DNA of 64,000 bases from a virus (IMGVR_UViG_3300037089_000535); one strand, 5' to 3'; positions 57,278-58,640 are shown, counted from the first letter of the stretch. Translations and numbers: made by a program. The notes: a model not told the origin generated them from the letters alone.

Positions 57278-57306
57278 TTGACGAGCCAGGAAAGCCTGGT
57301 AATATG
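57278..57306 (+). promoter_or_regulatory. Sigma70-like promoter (TTGACG-N16-TAATAT) preceding the ncRNA/tRNA cluster
   Basis: cTTGACGagccaggaaagcctggTAATATg. Confidence 0.4.
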
Positions 57307-57411
57307 CCGGCCCGATTCAAAATAGAATATTTTTTTGTGATGATCGGGGTGCAGCCCGTCAACTGCAATTTTCGGATCTACTAATAGCCAGATATATTTT
57401 TTACATTGCCG

Positions 57412-57537
57412 CTTCACAGAGGGTTGGTCCCTCGCCTACTACATAAGTTGGAAAACATCAGCTTTATGCCTCGCGTCCCGAAACGGATGCACTTTTGTGA
57501 AGCTTACACGCCGTGGTTCGAATCCACAAAGCGGCTC
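57412..57537 (+). ncRNA. Structured RNA repeat unit U1 (hairpins A, C and a T-arm-like hairpin D)
   Basis: gaggg-ttggt-ccctc; gcgtcc-cgaaac-ggatgc; CTTACAC box; cgtgg-TTCGAAT-ccaca. Homologous to U2-U4 with compensatory stem changes. Confidence 0.6.
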
Positions 57538-57690
57538 TAAAACTATCAAACAACAGCGCTTACACGCTCATAACGTACGTTCAGGGCTGATTCAAGTACC
57601 TGAACAACCCAAAAGCACTGTTACTCGATAGGTTTAATTTTCAATGGAAATGCTTCCATTGTGTGTTGAAAATATTGTGTGTTGAAAATG

Positions 57691-57792
57691 GGGCTAAAGG
57701 TAAAATTAGTAATTAGCGTTACCACTCGTATCAGAAATGATGCATCCTTTAATGCTTACACGAAAGACGGTTCGATTCCGTTAAGCTCCACT
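57691..57792 (+). ncRNA. Partial or degenerate structured RNA unit U5 (CTTACAC box and T-arm-like gacgg-TTCGATT-ccgtt)
   Basis: Shares the cactcg...gatgcatc, cttacacg and T-arm-like modules. Confidence 0.45.
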
Positions 57793-57828
57793 GAGAAGAA
57801 ATTCTCATCATGCGGGAATATAGAGGCT

Positions 57829-57945
57829 CGGTGCCTCACCTGAAATTTAACTCAGATATATTCAGCTTTTTCACTCGCGTCCCCTCAGAAGGATGCATCT
57901 CGCAAGGCTTACAAGCTGTGGTTCAACTCCACATTCCCGCGCAAA
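57829..57945 (+). ncRNA. Structured RNA repeat unit U2
   Basis: gaggc-tcggt-gcctc; ctga-aatttaac-tcag; gcgtcc-cctcagaa-ggatgc; cttacaa; tgtgg-TTCAACT-ccaca. Confidence 0.6.
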
Positions 57946-57968
57946 AGCAGTCAATCAGAAGTGCATAC

Positions 57969-58041
57969 ACGCAATTATGTTCAATGGTAGAACATTTCTC
58001 TTGAAAAGAAAAAATAGTAAGTTCGATTCTTACATTTGCAA
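57969..58041 (+). tRNA. tRNA-like gene B: good D-, anticodon- (anticodon UGA, short variable loop) and T-arms, acceptor stem not pairable (pseudo or atypical)
   Basis: gttc-aatggta-gaac; tttct-CTTGAAA-agaaa; gtaag-TTCGATT-cttac. The flanks acgcaat and atttgca are not complementary. Confidence 0.4.
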
Positions 58042-58085
58042 TCAAACAAGCATTTCAACTCGACTGCTTATTTATTTCGGCCAGT

Positions 58086-58218
58086 TATAGAGGATCGGTT
58101 CCTCGCCAGTTATGTTAAACTGGAGCCAAAAGCTCTTCAGGTTTATCACTCGCTTTCGCAAGAAAGCATAAGATGATTCTTACACGCAAACCTTGTTCGA
58201 CTCAAGGACTGGCCACCG
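58086..58218 (+). ncRNA. Structured RNA repeat unit U3
   Basis: gagga-tcggt-tcctc; ccagtt-atgtta-aactgg; gagc-caaaa-gctc; gctttc-GCAA-gaaagc; cttacacgcaaa; ccttg-TTCGACT-caagg. Confidence 0.65.
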
Positions 58219-58393
58219 GTAATATTTCATATTGACAGTTCGGCGTACAGGTCCTAACTGCTGACCTAACCCGTGAATGTACCCATCTGCAGATGGACGG
58301 ACTAAGCTTAGGAATCTTTATGAAATATTACTTGTCATTCAAATACAGGAATGTATTTGAATGAGCTAGCGCAATCAAATTCGAAGTGCTTAC

Positions 58394-58467
58394 ACGCAAT
58401 TAGCTCAGTGGTTGAGCGTTTTCCTATCACGAAAAAATCATGGGTTCAATTCCCATATTACGTACCA
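58394..58467 (+). tRNA. tRNA gene A with encoded CCA; cloverleaf complete but anticodon reads AUC (unusual)
   Basis: Acceptor acgcaat/attacgt (one C-A mismatch); D-arm gctc-agtggtt-gagc; anticodon arm ttttc-CTATCAC-gaaaa; T-arm atggg-TTCAATT-cccat; discriminator a then CCA. Confidence 0.6.
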
Positions 58468-58509
58468 AAACAAGCATTTCACCTCGATTGCGCAAACCTT
58501 AATGACCCT

Positions 58510-58640
58510 GATAGAGGATCGGTTCCTCACCAGCCATCGAAGCTGGAGCCAAAAGCTCTTCAGGTTTGCACCTCGCCCTCACAAGAGGGCAAATAGCAGT
58601 CCTTACACGCAAAGGTGTTCGACTCACCACAGGGTCACTA
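58510..58640 (+). ncRNA. Structured RNA repeat unit U4
   Basis: gagga-tcggt-tcctc; ccagc-catcgaa-gctgg; gagc-caaaa-gctc; gccctc-ACAA-gagggc; cttacacgcaaa; ggtg-TTCGACT-cacc. Confidence 0.65.

What the first reader, a model, noticed from the sequence alone, without database searches (positions are those of the whole stretch)
57278..58640. Family of ~130-nt structured RNA repeats with covarying stems and a tRNA T-arm mimic, interleaved with tRNA-like genes
At least four units (U1-U4, plus a degenerate U5) share an ordered set of modules.

- Hairpin A: gagga/tcctc, gaggc/gcctc or gaggg/ccctc around a conserved tcggt/ttggt loop.
- Hairpin B: ccagtt/aactgg, ccagc/gctgg or ctga/tcag.
- A gagc-caaaa-gctc element and a cac(t/c)tcgc box.
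- Hairpin C: gctttc-GCAA-gaaagc, gccctc-ACAA-gagggc or gcgtcc/ggatgc.
- An invariant CTTACAC(G) box.
- Hairpin D, which is T-arm-like: ccttg/caagg, ggtg/cacc or tgtgg/ccaca around TTCGAcT.

The stems differ between copies by compensatory changes while the loops are conserved. That pattern is the signature of a functional structured RNA rather than protein-coding sequence or neutral repeats.

The two tRNA-like genes also share conserved leaders (..gaagtgc[a/t]tacacgcaat) and trailers (caaacaagcatttca[a/c]ctcga..). The whole region therefore looks like a duplicated [unit]-[tRNA] cassette under a sigma70-like promoter.

The same genome encodes RtcB, a Ro60/vWA-like protein, Thg1-like and Tpt1. 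A Y-RNA/YrlA-like role as tRNA-mimicking partners of Ro60 and RtcB is one attractive hypothesis. Processing-signal-laden tRNA precursors, or a novel phage ncRNA class, are others.
Basis: seen in the sequence. Interest (0 to 1): 0.8.

Follow-up and report, generated by a model that had tools for sequence, protein, structure and literature searches.

The report
Phage tRNA-like RNAs with docking helix
A huge-phage genome carries an array of unannotated tRNA-shaped RNAs that share one conserved extra helix and nearly always sit next to a five-gene operon with a Ro60-like protein, which points to a new Y-RNA-like RNA-protein system.

Summary
Window 57278-58640 holds eight RNA genes that share one conserved module: helix P1, an internal loop with invariant CUCG, helix P2, then single-stranded UACA(A/C)GCA.

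In five long units the module is a hairpin in the variable-loop position of a tRNA-shaped RNA. Four units have the full cloverleaf; the fifth (U5) lacks D and anticodon arms. In three split cassettes the 5' leader pairs with the 3' trailer to form the same module. Two of these enclose the ARAGORN/Rfam tRNAs and one encloses a small hairpin.

A covariance model finds 120 units in 55 sources, almost all huge-phage contigs. 93% of cells are paired, against 39-53% in slid controls. No Rfam family matches, and the one GenBank relative has them unannotated.

Units lie within 10 kb of a collinear operon in 49 of 56 loci. The operon encodes a Ro60-like helical+vWA protein, an OB/coiled-coil protein, a JAMM peptidase, a small Gly-terminal protein and an E1-like enzyme.

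Only 34% of units have a normal anticodon loop, so most are mimics, not decoders.

Best reading (0.45): Y-RNA-like partners of the operon proteins, built on a new architecture. They are not YrlA members. Main rival (0.25): an excised intron or processing helix sealed by RtcB.

The parts
57278..57305 (+). Sigma-70-like promoter candidate (TTGACG, 16-nt spacer, TG-TAATAT) upstream of the array
   Evidence: Consensus scan. The number of such matches in the region is not above the shuffle expectation, so this is only a candidate.
57408..57536 (+). Long unit U1. tRNA cloverleaf with a 7-bp acceptor stem GCCGCTT/AAGCGGC, a D-like hairpin, an anticodon arm with CAT, and a T arm. The P1-CUCG-P2 module sits in the variable-loop position.
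   Evidence: R1 105.7 bits, E 7e-26. MFE fold.
57538..57636 (+). Split cassette S0. The leader (P2 3' strand, P1 3' strand AACAGCGCT, TACA) and the trailer (P1 5' strand AGCACTGTT, ACTCG, P2 5' strand) enclose a ~45-nt hairpin cargo.
   Evidence: MFE fold closes with P2+P1. The L033 orthologue keeps both helices through compensatory changes.
57690..57790 (+). Minimal unit U5. It has an acceptor stem with G3:U70 and A73, the module, and a T arm. It has no D or anticodon arm.
   Evidence: R1 51.7 bits, E 4e-11. The same subtype occurs in L033, L052 and L247.
57812..57941 (+). Long unit U2. Acceptor GCGGGAA/TTCCCGC, with an 8-nt anticodon loop AATTTAAC.
   Evidence: R1 114.6 bits. Fold.
57947..58067 (+). 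Split cassette tS. Leader: P2 3' strand GCAGTC, then P1 3' strand GAAGTGCAT, then ACA. Cargo: tRNA 57970-58041 (anticodon TGA, short variable loop). Trailer: P1 5' strand AAGCATTTC, then AACTCG, then P2 5' strand GACTGC.
   Evidence: ARAGORN and Rfam tRNA, 56.3 bits. Leader-trailer duplex -21.4 kcal/mol, and the MFE fold closes with P2+P1.
58079..58215 (+). Long unit U3. Acceptor GGCCAGT/ACTGGCC, an 8-nt anticodon loop, an extra small hairpin GAGC-CAAAA-GCTC, and a GCAA tetraloop on P2.
   Evidence: R1 116.7 bits, E 7e-29. Fold.
58369..58493 (+). Split cassette tD. Leader: P2 3' strand GCGCAA, then P1 3' strand GAAGTGCTT, then AC. Cargo: tRNA 58394-58467 (anticodon ATC, encoded CCA). Trailer: P1 5' strand AAGCATTTC, then ACCTCG, then P2 5' strand TTGCGC.
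   Evidence: ARAGORN and Rfam tRNA, 61.2 bits. Duplex -24.0 kcal/mol, and the fold closes with P2+P1.
58504..58637 (+). Long unit U4. Acceptor GACCCTG/CAGGGTC, anticodon loop CATCGAA (A33), and the small hairpin GAGC-CAAAA-GCTC.
   Evidence: R1 111.1 bits. Fold.
48881..50740 (+). Ro60-like protein (RoL, 619 aa). It has an N-terminal beta domain, about 300 aa of helical repeats, and a C-terminal vWA domain with the MIDAS motif DISGSM.
51035..51985 (+). p316: OB-fold-like beta barrels, a long coiled coil, and a small Cys-containing C-terminal domain. It is the second gene of the conserved operon.
52012..52419 (+). JAMM/JAB metallopeptidase, with the motif HTHPGSGAPGPSYTD.
   Evidence: Pfam Prok-JAB E 4e-4. 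Present in 59 of 65 loci.
52434..52703 (+). Small protein (89 aa) that ends in ...RPKTPFG. Homologues carry 0-5 extra residues after the Gly. It is an inferred ubiquitin-like or carrier protein.
   Evidence: Alignment of homologues. Present in 59 of 65 loci. No Pfam hit, and the fold was not tested.
55013..55612 (+). E1-like adenylyltransferase (ThiF/MoeB family, 199 aa, adenylation domain only).
   Evidence: Pfam ThiF 8e-25. PDB matches MoeB 7e-12, Uba4 and TcdA. Present in 57 of 65 loci, and it is the last gene before the RNA array in most of them.
44464..45879 (+). RtcB RNA ligase. It sits in an RNA-repair cluster with Tpt1 (40301-40831), Thg1-like (41065-41850) and HAD_SAK_2 (42991-43464). 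It is a possible functional partner but not a conserved neighbour.
   Evidence: Pfam hits. RtcB lies within 10 kb of RoL in only 2 of 65 loci.

Best explanation
The region is an array of phage tRNA-derived non-coding RNAs. They all carry one conserved helical module: helix P1, an asymmetric internal loop with invariant CUCG, helix P2, then single-stranded UACA(A/C)GCA.

The module occurs in two topologies:
- In the long units it is a closed hairpin that takes the place of the variable loop of a tRNA-shaped RNA.
- In the split cassettes it is formed by the 5' leader pairing with the 3' trailer around a 72-74-nt tRNA or a small hairpin.

I think the module is most likely the docking site for proteins of the linked five-gene operon. 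By analogy the docking protein is the Ro60-like helical+vWA protein, possibly together with the OB-fold protein. The tRNA-shaped part keeps its acceptor stem and D/T-loop elbow but usually has an abnormal anticodon loop. It would act as a tRNA mimic that presents those ends to tRNA-recognising enzymes. These could be phage RNA-repair enzymes such as RtcB, Tpt1 or Thg1-like, or host tRNA-targeting nucleases.

In short, this would be a Y-RNA-like ribonucleoprotein system built on a different RNA architecture.

**Shown:** the RNA structures, their covariation, the two topologies, the distribution in phages, the genetic linkage to the operon, and the abnormal anticodon loops.

**Inferred:** that the RNAs are expressed and stable, that the module is bound rather than removed, which protein binds it, and what the complex does.
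For: 1. **Structure.** Six helices are supported on 119 distinct sequences. 93.2% of cells are paired against 39-53% in slid controls, and 30 of 31 pairs have double changes (smaller set; RNAalifold).
2. **Same module in split form.** About eleven cassettes (twelve candidates; one looks like a false positive) show own-leader/own-trailer pairing with compensatory P2 sequences. Examples are GACTGC/GCAGTC, TTGCGC/GCGCAA, AACGCC/GGCGTT, AATGGTCCC/GGGACCATT and GAGTGCTCC/GGAGCACTC. Own duplexes average -28.9 kcal/mol against -16.4 for cross-locus pairs. The MFE folds close with P2+P1. A terminal stem with an internal loop plus a tRNA-like or hairpin body is the Y-RNA ground plan (PMC4201824, PMC12135203).
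3. **Linkage.** The RoL gene was found in 65 IMG/VR loci. The order RoL-p316-JAB-small protein-ThiF is collinear in 57-60 of them. Units lie within 10 kb in 49 of 56 loci with full flanks. In 42 they follow ThiF and in 7 they lie directly upstream of RoL. 116 of 118 hits are on the operon strand. Contigs whose units sit elsewhere in a tRNA cluster still carry the operon.
4. **RoL fold.** Its best Foldseek matches are Ro60, TROVE and phage Ro60, over the whole length.
5. **Most are not decoders.** Only 40 of 119 units have a 7-nt anticodon loop with U33. 26 have 8-nt loops, and minimal units lack the arm altogether. Related phages also carry 20-30 ordinary tRNAs next to the units.
6. **Elbow and acceptor are kept.** GG in the D loop and GGTTCGAnTCC are conserved in at least 90% of units.
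7. **Phage-specific.** Only 4 units were found, in 3 short MAG contigs, among 185,579 species genomes.
Against: - No expression or binding data exist.
- The Ro-binding motif of known bacterial and phage Y RNAs (GNCGAAN0-1G / CGAA) is absent.
- The split cassettes enclose apparently normal tRNAs, some with encoded CCA. RNase P and 3' processing would be expected to remove the flanks from these.
- After in-silico removal of the module, 20-30 of 41 units are called as tRNAs. That is what an intron would look like.
- Synteny among related phages could partly reflect common descent rather than function.
- The roles of the JAMM peptidase, the small protein and the E1-like enzyme are unexplained by a simple Ro/Y-RNA model.
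Confidence: 0.45

Rival explanations
1. The module is an excision signal, that is, an intron or processing helix. A structure-specific endonuclease would cut both strands at the base of P1. In the long units this would remove the hairpin, and RtcB would join the two tRNA halves. In the split cassettes the same cuts would release the enclosed tRNA from the polycistronic precursor. This would be a bacterial-virus analogue of the archaeal bulge-helix-bulge / EndA / RtcB system. That system likewise acts on tRNA introns at various positions and on rRNA leader-trailer stems.
For: - The same module occurs as a hairpin inside tRNAs and as a leader-trailer helix around tRNAs.
- Deleting it yields ARAGORN-callable tRNAs with many anticodons in 20-30 of 41 units, whereas ARAGORN calls none of the window's five intact units and almost none in the related loci.
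- The conserved single-stranded junctions (A-rich-YC on the 5' side and UACA on the 3' side) flank P1, where cuts would be expected.
- The window encodes RtcB, Tpt1, Thg1-like and a HAD 'Swiss-army-knife' repair domain.
Against: - No EndA, RNase III or other endonuclease family was found in about 67 window ORFs scanned, nor in the conserved operon.
- No canonical 3-nt/4-bp/3-nt bulge-helix-bulge is visible.
- The linker lengths on both sides of P1 vary (7-19 nt and 8-13 nt). Cuts at a fixed distance from the module would therefore leave variable regions of very different lengths.
- Two thirds of the would-be spliced tRNAs have non-U33 or 8-nt anticodon loops. They also duplicate anticodons of ordinary tRNAs in the same clusters.
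- One split cassette encloses only a hairpin.
- RtcB is near the operon in only 2 of 65 loci.
Confidence: 0.25
2. The long units are working or decoy tRNAs that keep the big variable arm. The arm and the altered anticodon loops would protect them from host tRNA-cleaving defence nucleases, or would attract those nucleases. Under this reading the linked operon is unrelated or only co-inherited.
For: - The anticodons cover families targeted by known anticodon or variable-loop nucleases. GTA is the commonest (12 of 83), followed by TCC, GTT and TTG, and CTT and TTT also occur. Position 33 is systematically changed, for example CGGTAAA in all Tyr-like units.
- Septu is reported to cut the variable loop of tRNA-Tyr (abstract of PMC13096335).
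- The variable-arm position is structurally tolerant, as class II tRNAs show.
Against: - This does not explain why the same module flanks short tRNAs and a plain hairpin in split form.
- It does not explain the minimal units that lack an anticodon arm.
- It does not explain the strand-specific linkage to the operon in two different gene orders.
Confidence: 0.12
3. The repeats are DNA-level features. They could be hairpins and cleavage sites of an IS200/IS605-type or other mobile element (TTAC in the box, TCAA at the start of several trailers). Alternatively they could be recently duplicated tRNA pseudogenes under no RNA-level selection.
For: - CTTAC and TCAA resemble IS608 cleavage sites (my own knowledge, not tested here).
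- A TnpB-like ORF lies at 5262-6776.
- HNH genes interrupt the operon in relatives.
Against: - G-U pairs are used throughout, and only on the transcribed strand.
- Helices are kept by compensatory change across contigs with GC from 0.35 to 0.68.
- The pairing elements lie outside, not inside, the putative TTAC...TCAA element.
- T-loop and D-loop tertiary nucleotides are conserved.
- The TnpB-like ORF is 50 kb away.
Confidence: 0.03

Closest known systems
Bacterial and phage Y RNAs, especially YrlA (Chen et al. 2014, PMC4201824) and the Thermus phage phiLo Yrl1/2 with phiRo60 (PMC12135203)
   Same: - They are non-coding RNAs encoded beside a Ro60-type gene and are often multi-copy.
- They are modular: a stem with an internal loop or bulge that docks the protein, plus a domain that mimics the tRNA D/T elbow and acceptor stem.
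- Some YrlA are cut by RNase P and receive CCA.
- In Salmonella the operon also contains RtcB. Here RtcB lies 3 kb upstream of RoL.
   Different: - The order of elements differs. YrlA has its ends in the Ro stem and a loop-closed 'acceptor'. The long units here have their ends in a true 7-bp acceptor stem and the module closed by a loop. They also keep an anticodon arm.
- The conserved motif is CUCG and UACA(A/C)GCA, not GNCGAAN0-1G or CGAA.
- No Rfam hit was found.
- The protein is not detectably TROVE by sequence.
- The operon adds an OB/coiled-coil protein, a JAMM peptidase, a small Gly-terminal protein and an E1-like enzyme.
Archaeal bulge-helix-bulge tRNA introns and rRNA processing stems (EndA cleavage, RtcB ligation; review PMC4090602)
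   Same: - One structural element is found both inside tRNAs at non-anticodon positions and as a leader-trailer helix around a stable RNA.
- Removing it restores a tRNA.
- RtcB is present in the genome.
   Different: - No BHB geometry is visible.
- No EndA homologue was found.
- The element is sequence-conserved (CUCG, UACA) and 55-65 nt long.
- Most of the 'exons' would make tRNAs with abnormal anticodon loops.
- The host is a bacteriophage.
Phage T4 species 1 and species 2 stable RNAs (rnaC, rnaD) in the T4 tRNA cluster
   Same: - They are ~120-140-nt stable RNAs of unknown function, co-located with phage tRNA genes.
- rnaC ends in a T arm (CCGGGUUCGAAUCCCGG) enclosed by a terminal stem.
   Different: - The covariance model matches only the T arm of rnaC (10.3 bits) and nothing in rnaD.
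- They have no P1-CUCG-P2 module.
- No Ro-like operon is annotated in the 5-kb T4 stretch examined.
Class II tRNAs with long variable arms, and the tRNA-like domain of tmRNA
   Same: - An extra helix emerges between the anticodon or D region and the T arm.
- The minimal units (acceptor + T arm, G3:U70, A73) resemble the alanine-accepting tRNA-like domain of tmRNA.
   Different: - The variable region is 65-80 nt with two helices and conserved loops, against 10-24 nt in class II tRNAs.
- ARAGORN finds no tmRNA in the window.
- ARAGORN and the Rfam tRNA model do not recognise the window's five units.

Membership tests
Canonical tRNA (Rfam RF00005 / ARAGORN) | 7-bp acceptor stem, T arm with GTTCRAnYC, and D loop with GG | tested here: met
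   Acceptor 93% paired and T stem 99% paired. GG and GGTTCGAnTCC are conserved in at least 90% of 119 units.
Canonical tRNA (Rfam RF00005 / ARAGORN) | Recognised by tRNA models, with a variable region of 4-24 nt | tested here: not met
   None of the window's five units is reported by ARAGORN, nor by Rfam even at E<=10. The variable region is 65-80 nt.
Canonical tRNA (Rfam RF00005 / ARAGORN) | 7-nt anticodon loop with U33 | tested here: not met
   Only 40 of 119 units have one. 26 have 8-nt loops, and 43 of the 83 seven-nt loops have A, G or C at position 33.
YrlA / bacterial Y RNA | Encoded next to a Ro60 (TROVE+vWA) gene | tested here: inconclusive
YrlA / bacterial Y RNA | 5'/3' terminal stem carrying the Ro-binding motif GNCGAAN0-1G (CGAA) | tested here: not met
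   The split cassettes do have a terminal stem with an internal loop. The invariant motif there is CUCG. CGAA is not conserved (motif taken from PMC4201824 and PMC12135203).
YrlA / bacterial Y RNA | tRNA-like domain in the order V-T-(loop-closed acceptor)-D between the two strands of the Ro stem | tested here: not met
   The long units have the order acceptor 5' - D - anticodon arm - module - T - acceptor 3'. The minimal units are at best circular permutations of the YrlA plan.
YrlA / bacterial Y RNA | Binds Ro60; modified by TruB/DusA | not testable with these tools
   This needs RIP or EMSA and modification mapping.
Archaeal-type BHB tRNA intron | Bulge(3)-helix(4)-bulge(3) motif at the exon-intron junctions | tested here: not met
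   Reading the P1 base in the 41- and 120-sequence alignments shows single-stranded junctions of variable length and no 4-bp helix between two 3-nt bulges. No dedicated BHB search tool was run.
Archaeal-type BHB tRNA intron | Splicing endonuclease (EndA) and RtcB encoded or available | tested here: inconclusive
   RtcB is present (2e-84). No tRNA-intron endonuclease family appeared in about 67 ORFs scanned. Small ORFs and the rest of the genome were not covered.
Archaeal-type BHB tRNA intron | Removing the insert gives a tRNA | tested here: met
   ARAGORN-30 of 41 units after deletion of the module.
Bacterial group I intron in tRNA | Intron of at least ~200 nt in the anticodon loop with a group I core | tested here: not met
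   The insert is 55-65 nt and lies in the variable-loop position. There is no Rfam intron hit.
T4 species 1/2 RNAs | Sequence and structure similarity to rnaC or rnaD | tested here: not met
   R1 with filters off matches only the rnaC T arm at 10.3 bits.

The most novel reading that the evidence does not exclude
The tRNA-like RNAs could be acceptor substrates of the adjacent E1-like enzyme. The small Gly-terminal protein would first be trimmed by the JAMM peptidase. The E1 would then adenylate it and esterify it to the 3' end of the tRNA-shaped RNA, as an aminoacyl-tRNA synthetase would. This would give a protein-RNA conjugate, or an E2-free, tRNA-dependent route for transferring a ubiquitin-like protein. 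The Ro60-like and OB-fold proteins would hold the RNA by its module.

This reading would explain several observations:
- The acceptor stem and elbow are conserved while the anticodon loop is free to decay.
- No E2 domain was recognised among the operon proteins.
- The minimal units carry the alanine-minihelix signature G3:U70/A73.
Probability: 0.05. Interest if true: 0.95.

Novelty: new variant of a known kind. Interest (0 to 1): 0.78.

Why it matters
If the RNAs are partners of the operon proteins, this is a widespread and wholly unannotated ribonucleoprotein system of huge phages. The two large operon proteins each have about 1,500 homologues (1,511 and 1,483) in metagenomes, on contigs up to 660 kb. 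It would extend the Ro60/Y-RNA principle to a new RNA architecture. It would also tie that principle to a ubiquitin-like/E1/JAMM triad, a link not previously described as far as my searches show.

If instead the module is excised, it would be the first protein-dependent, archaeal-style tRNA excision and splicing system in viruses of bacteria.

Either way:
- Current tRNA and Rfam annotation misses about 130-nt tRNA-derived genes that occur in arrays of up to six per genome.
- The family offers a clean, covariation-rich model (120 sequences) for experimental work on phage counter-defence at the level of tRNA.

Tried and rejected
- **Rfam.** At gathering threshold and at E<=10, only the two short tRNAs are hit. 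The rest are chance-level hits such as Tymo_tRNA-like and plastid motifs.
- **BLAST against 50,697 phage records.** DNA searches, near and distant, found nothing. The protein search with RoL found one record, Virus Rctr197k. There the cassettes are unannotated and RoL is a misc_feature.
- **First IMG/VR pattern scans.** These were mostly chance or ordinary tRNA-Val hits and had to be filtered by regex and then by the covariance model.
- **T4 rnaC/rnaD.** Not the same family.
- **YrlA membership.** Rejected on element order and motif.
- **Self-cleaving ribozyme.** I compared the conserved nucleotides from memory with hammerhead, hairpin, twister, pistol, hatchet and HDV-like cores and saw no convincing match. 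No Rfam ribozyme hit appeared. This is not formally excluded.
- **Kink-turn or loop-E reading of the internal loop.** There are no conserved G-A pairs.
- **Sequence-level tests of RoL as TROVE.** Pfam at E<=10, phmmer and profile search against PDB were all negative.
- **PHROGs on ten proteins of the operon region.** Only the ThiF-like protein hit, and only families of unknown function.
- **p316 fold search.** Only weak OB-fold matches and no enzyme.
- **GTDB genome scan.** 93 pattern hits gave only 4 true units, on short MAG contigs.
- **Literature searches.** Searches on phage tRNA variable-arm insertions, huge-phage tRNA introns and Ro60/Ubl operons found no description of this family. The Burroughs & Aravind 2016 RNA-repair paper could not be retrieved.
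Full report
**1. What is in the sequence**

ARAGORN and Rfam find only two tRNA genes in the 64-kb window. They lie at 57970-58041 (anticodon TGA) and 58394-58467 (ATC). A permissive Rfam scan of 57200-58700 adds only chance-level hits.

The octamer CTTACACG occurs exactly six times in the window. All six lie between 57503 and 58609.

Four have the complete shape:
- a 7-bp acceptor stem joins the 5' and 3' ends. The pairs are GCCGCTT/AAGCGGC, GCGGGAA/TTCCCGC, GGCCAGT/ACTGGCC and GACCCTG/CAGGGTC;
- 'hairpin A' is a D-arm-like 5-bp hairpin with a TYGGT loop;
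- 'hairpin B' is the anticodon arm;
- 'hairpin D' is a T arm.

This covers the cactcgc box, hairpin C and the CTTACAC box. The module consists of:
- an outer helix P1;
- an asymmetric internal loop whose 5' side is (A/C)CUCG;
- an inner hairpin P2, often capped by a GNRA or UNCG tetraloop;
- the 3' strand of P1, which ends in CU;
- single-stranded UACA(A/C)GCA leading into the T stem.

Unit coordinates are U1 57408-57536, U5 57690-57790, U2 57812-57941, U3 58079-58215 and U4 58504-58637.

**2. Is it more than chance, and is it an RNA?**

IMG/VR pattern scans, filtered first by regex and then by a covariance model (R1, built from 14 sequences), recovered many relatives. There were 41 units in the window plus 19 loci. 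Later searches brought this to 120 units at E<1e-8 in 55 sources.

On 119 distinct sequences:
- 93.2% of cells form standard pairs, against 39-53% when the 3' partners are slid by 1-3 columns;
- 30 of 31 pairs show changes on both sides;
- no shuffle out of 500 reaches the observed covariation score.

All six helices covary: acceptor, D, anticodon, P1, P2 and T. The alignment was fitted to the model, which inflates these numbers somewhat. An independent MAFFT/RNAalifold run on 14 sequences already gave 25 of 31 pairs with compensatory changes.

The base of P1 covaries too: CAG...CUUACA, CUG...CAUACA and CGAC...GUCUACA. G-U pairs are frequent and strand-specific. This is a structured RNA, not coding sequence or a DNA repeat.

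**3. The leaders and trailers of the two tRNAs are the same module, split**

The sequence just upstream of each short tRNA is P2(3' strand) - spacer - P1(3' strand) - CUUACA. The sequence just downstream is (CCA)/UCAAAAC - CAG - P1(5' strand) - (A/C)CUCG - P2(5' strand).

Each tRNA's own leader pairs with its own trailer. P2 differs between cassettes through compensatory change:

| Cassette | P2 5' strand / 3' strand |
|---|---|
| window tS | GACTGC / GCAGTC |
| window tD | TTGCGC / GCGCAA |
| L052 | AACGCC / GGCGTT |
| L010 | AATGGTCCC / GGGACCATT |
| L058 | GTCGCTCTC / GAGAGTGAC |
| L065 | GCAGCT / AGCTGC |
| L218 | GAGTGCTCC / GGAGCACTC |

- Twelve candidate cassettes were picked out; one looks like a false positive. 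Their own leader-trailer duplexes average -28.9 kcal/mol, against -16.4 for leader-trailer pairs taken from different loci.
- Minimum-free-energy folds of the whole cassettes close with P2+P1.
- A third split cassette lies at 57538-57636. It encloses only a ~45-nt hairpin and is conserved, with compensatory changes, in the close relative L033.

The window array is therefore: promoter candidate, U1, S0, U5, U2, tS cassette, U3, spacer, tD cassette, U4.

**4. What kind of tRNA-like RNAs are these?**

Deleting the module in silico makes ARAGORN-30 of 41 units as tRNAs. Many anticodons are represented, including Tyr GTA, Gly TCC, Asn GTT, Gln TTG, Met CAT, Arg, Phe, Lys, Ser, Thr, Trp and Asp.

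Most cannot be ordinary decoders:
- only 40 of 119 have a 7-nt anticodon loop with U33;
- 26 have 8-nt loops;
- 43 of the 83 seven-nt loops have A, G or C at position 33. For example, all the Tyr-like units of the first 41-unit alignment read CGGUAAA or ACGUAAA.

A conserved minimal subtype lacks the D and anticodon arms altogether (window U5, L033, L052 and L247). Four of five such units carry G3:U70 with A73, whereas G-U at that pair is seen in only 6 of 120 units overall.

By contrast, the D-loop GG, the T loop GGUUCGAnUCC and the acceptor stem are strongly conserved.

In related contigs the units sit at the head of, or inside, clusters of 20-30 ordinary tRNA genes plus tmRNA. They are therefore extra to a normal tRNA set.

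The short tRNAs in split cassettes often have unusual A34 anticodons, such as ATC, ATT and AAC.

**5. Genomic context**

Clustering the ORFs of the first loci showed a conserved gene set next to the arrays. Window coordinates are:
- a 619-aa vWA protein, 48881-50740;
- a 316-aa protein, 51035-51985;
- a JAB/JAMM peptidase, 52012-52419;
- an 89-aa protein ending ...RPKTPFG, 52434-52703. Homologues carry 0-5 extra residues after the Gly;
- a 199-aa ThiF/MoeB-type E1-like enzyme, 55013-55612.

A systematic search with the vWA protein found 65 IMG/VR loci. The five genes are collinear in that order in 57-60 of them.

Units at E<1e-6 lie within 10 kb in 49 of the 56 loci with complete flanks. In 42 they follow ThiF, and in 7 they lie directly upstream of the vWA gene. 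116 of 118 hits are on the operon strand. Loci were not de-replicated, and a few are identical.

Contigs whose units had first been found far from the operon, inside tRNA clusters, also carry the operon elsewhere (contig names).

The vWA protein and the 316-aa protein have 1,511 and 1,483 homologues in metagenomes, on contigs up to 660 kb. All are unnamed. PHROGs has no family for them; among the ten operon-region proteins scanned only the ThiF-like one hit, in families of unknown function.

Only one GenBank phage record contains the system: Virus Rctr197k, KX853510. There the RNA cassettes are not annotated.

Among 185,579 species genomes, only four units were found, on three short MAG contigs.

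**6. What are the operon proteins?**

*vWA protein (RoL).* The AF2 model has pLDDT 76 and pTM 0.44. It shows an N-terminal beta domain, about 300 residues of helical repeats and a C-terminal vWA domain with a MIDAS motif.
- Foldseek against the PDB ranks Ro60 first (1yvp, E 2.4e-8). The phage phiLo TROVE domain (9kop) and phiLo Ro60 (9l5y) follow. All are aligned over ~550 columns, ahead of plain vWA domains at ~190 columns. TM-scores are only 0.21-0.30.
- Pfam TROVE and PDB sequence profiles do not hit.

I therefore call it Ro60-like in architecture, with homology unproven.

*JAMM, small protein and E1.* The JAMM motif is intact. The small protein's ubiquitin-like nature is inferred only from its size, its position and its conserved terminal Gly.

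*RNA-repair genes.* RtcB, Tpt1, Thg1-like and a HAD_SAK_2 domain lie 3-8 kb upstream of the vWA gene in the window. RtcB is within 10 kb of the operon in only 2 of 65 loci.

**7. Most likely mechanism**

The same module is attached to tRNA-like bodies at two different places, the variable-arm position and the extension of the acceptor stem. It is also attached to a plain hairpin. It is therefore an autonomous element that is recognised on its own. It is genetically tied to an operon whose two large proteins look like RNA binders.

The split cassettes have the classical Y-RNA plan: a terminal stem with a conserved internal loop, plus an effector body that here is a tRNA or a hairpin. The minimal units are close to a circular permutation of YrlA.

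Most bodies keep the elbow and acceptor end but have lost a normal anticodon loop, which fits mimicry rather than decoding.

I therefore favour (0.45) a Y-RNA-like RNP. The module would dock the Ro60-like and/or OB-fold protein. The tRNA-shaped part would engage tRNA-recognising enzymes, either the phage's repair enzymes or host tRNA-targeting nucleases. Binding, expression and the role of the JAMM/small-protein/E1 triad are all inferred or unknown.

**8. Rivals**

- **(a) Excised intron or processing helix sealed by RtcB (0.25).**
  - *For:* it explains the two topologies neatly, and it explains why exons alone look like tRNAs.
  - *Against:* no endonuclease was found, there is no bulge-helix-bulge geometry, and the junction lengths vary. 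The 'spliced' products would mostly have aberrant anticodon loops, one cargo is a bare hairpin, and RtcB is not a conserved neighbour.
- **(b) Nuclease-resistant or decoy tRNAs that keep the arm, independent of the operon (0.12).** This does not explain the split form, the minimal units or the linkage.
- **(c) DNA-level mobile-element hairpins or neutral duplicates (0.03).** This is contradicted by strand-specific G-U pairing and by covariation across contigs of 35-68% GC.
- **(d) Speculative reading (0.05).** The RNAs are acceptors for the E1-activated small protein.

**9. Comparison with known families**

| Family | Verdict | Basis |
|---|---|---|
| YrlA / Y RNA | Not a member | Element order and Ro-binding motif not met; neighbourhood criterion only partly met |
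| Canonical tRNA | Not a member | Not recognised by tRNA models; 65-80-nt variable region; abnormal anticodon loops |
| Group I intron in tRNA | Not a member | Insert too short and at the wrong position |
| BHB intron | No | No BHB motif and no EndA found |
| T4 rnaC / rnaD | Not related | The model matches only the rnaC T arm |

Functionally the closest analogue is the Ro60/YrlA system. Structurally the closest precedent for a 'hairpin inside or helix around' element is the archaeal BHB.

**10. Verdict**

This is a real, widespread, phage-specific and so far unannotated family of tRNA-derived RNAs. It has a shared helical module and is coupled to an uncharacterised Ro60-like/OB/JAMM/small-protein/E1 operon.

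Novelty: a new variant of a known kind (a tRNA-mimicking partner RNA of a Ro60-type protein). There is a substantial chance of something more unusual.

Interest: 0.78.

Noticed in passing
window 57690-57790; L033 3122-3226; L052 4950-5057; L247 15077-15189: The minimal units (acceptor + module + T arm, no anticodon arm) carry G3:U70 and discriminator A73. This is the alanine-identity signature of tRNA-Ala minihelices and of the tmRNA tRNA-like domain. It is present in 4 of 5 such units. G-U at that pair occurs in only 6 of 120 units overall.
   Followed up: partly
window 58394-58467; L033 3271-3345; L052 5900-5971; L174 3229-3303; L070 3364-3436; L006 5506-5577: The short tRNAs enclosed by split modules often have A at the wobble position (anticodons ATC, ATT, AAC). 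This is unusual for bacterial-type tRNAs other than Arg-ACG. Their acceptor stems often contain mismatches.
   Followed up: partly
window 57637-57689: The spacer between S0 and U5 has a perfect hairpin (CAATGGAA-atgc-TTCCATTG) followed by a tandem direct repeat, tgtgtgttgaaaat x2. Its function is unknown.
   Followed up: no
window 58216-58368: A 150-nt spacer between U3 and the tD cassette is not matched by the model. It contains a TTGACA-like hexamer and a hairpin (CATTCAAATAC-aggaa-GTATTTGAATG). It could be an internal promoter or terminator, or another small RNA.
   Followed up: no
window 58351-58596 (+): The mechanical 81-aa ORF here overlaps the tD cassette and U4 and is almost certainly spurious. 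In L218 a called 208-aa 'gene' (15809-16435) likewise overlaps two units.
   Followed up: partly
KX853510.1 (Virus Rctr197k), L285 7230-7700 (- strand): The only GenBank relative carries a split cassette around an unannotated tRNA-like gene with an aberrant T loop, and a CTTACAAGCA-containing element. Its Ro60-like gene is annotated only as a misc_feature 'similar to conserved hypothetical protein'.
   Followed up: partly
window 5262-6776 (+): A TnpB/Cas12f-like ORF (OrfB_IS605 + Cas12f1-like TNB domains). No associated omega-RNA or IS ends were looked for.
   Followed up: no
window 15927-18344 (-) and 43653-44441 (-); L218 11860-12486 and 14358-14984: An 805-aa ORF carries a LAGLIDADG domain and a weak intein-splicing signal. 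A free-standing LAGLIDADG ORF lies just upstream of RtcB. In relatives, HNH endonuclease genes are inserted inside the five-gene operon.
   Followed up: no
window 526-3251 (+): An adjacent PP2C-type phosphatase (526-1374) and a protein with a Ser/Thr kinase domain just below Pfam's cut-off (1371-3251). This is an unusual signalling pair for a phage.
   Followed up: no
window 8368-10317 (-), 13018-13758 (-), 28006-28572 (+), 33113-35041 (+): A glutamine-dependent NAD synthase, an R2K-clade ATP-grasp protein, an Rv2179c-like 3'-5' exoribonuclease and an FtsH-like AAA+/M41 protease. These are further signs of a very large phage genome with extensive auxiliary metabolism.
   Followed up: no
window 55609-57218 (+): In the window, two extra genes sit between the E1-like gene and the RNA array: a 239-aa protein of unknown function and an inosine-uridine nucleoside hydrolase homologue. 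In most relatives the array follows ThiF directly.
   Followed up: partly
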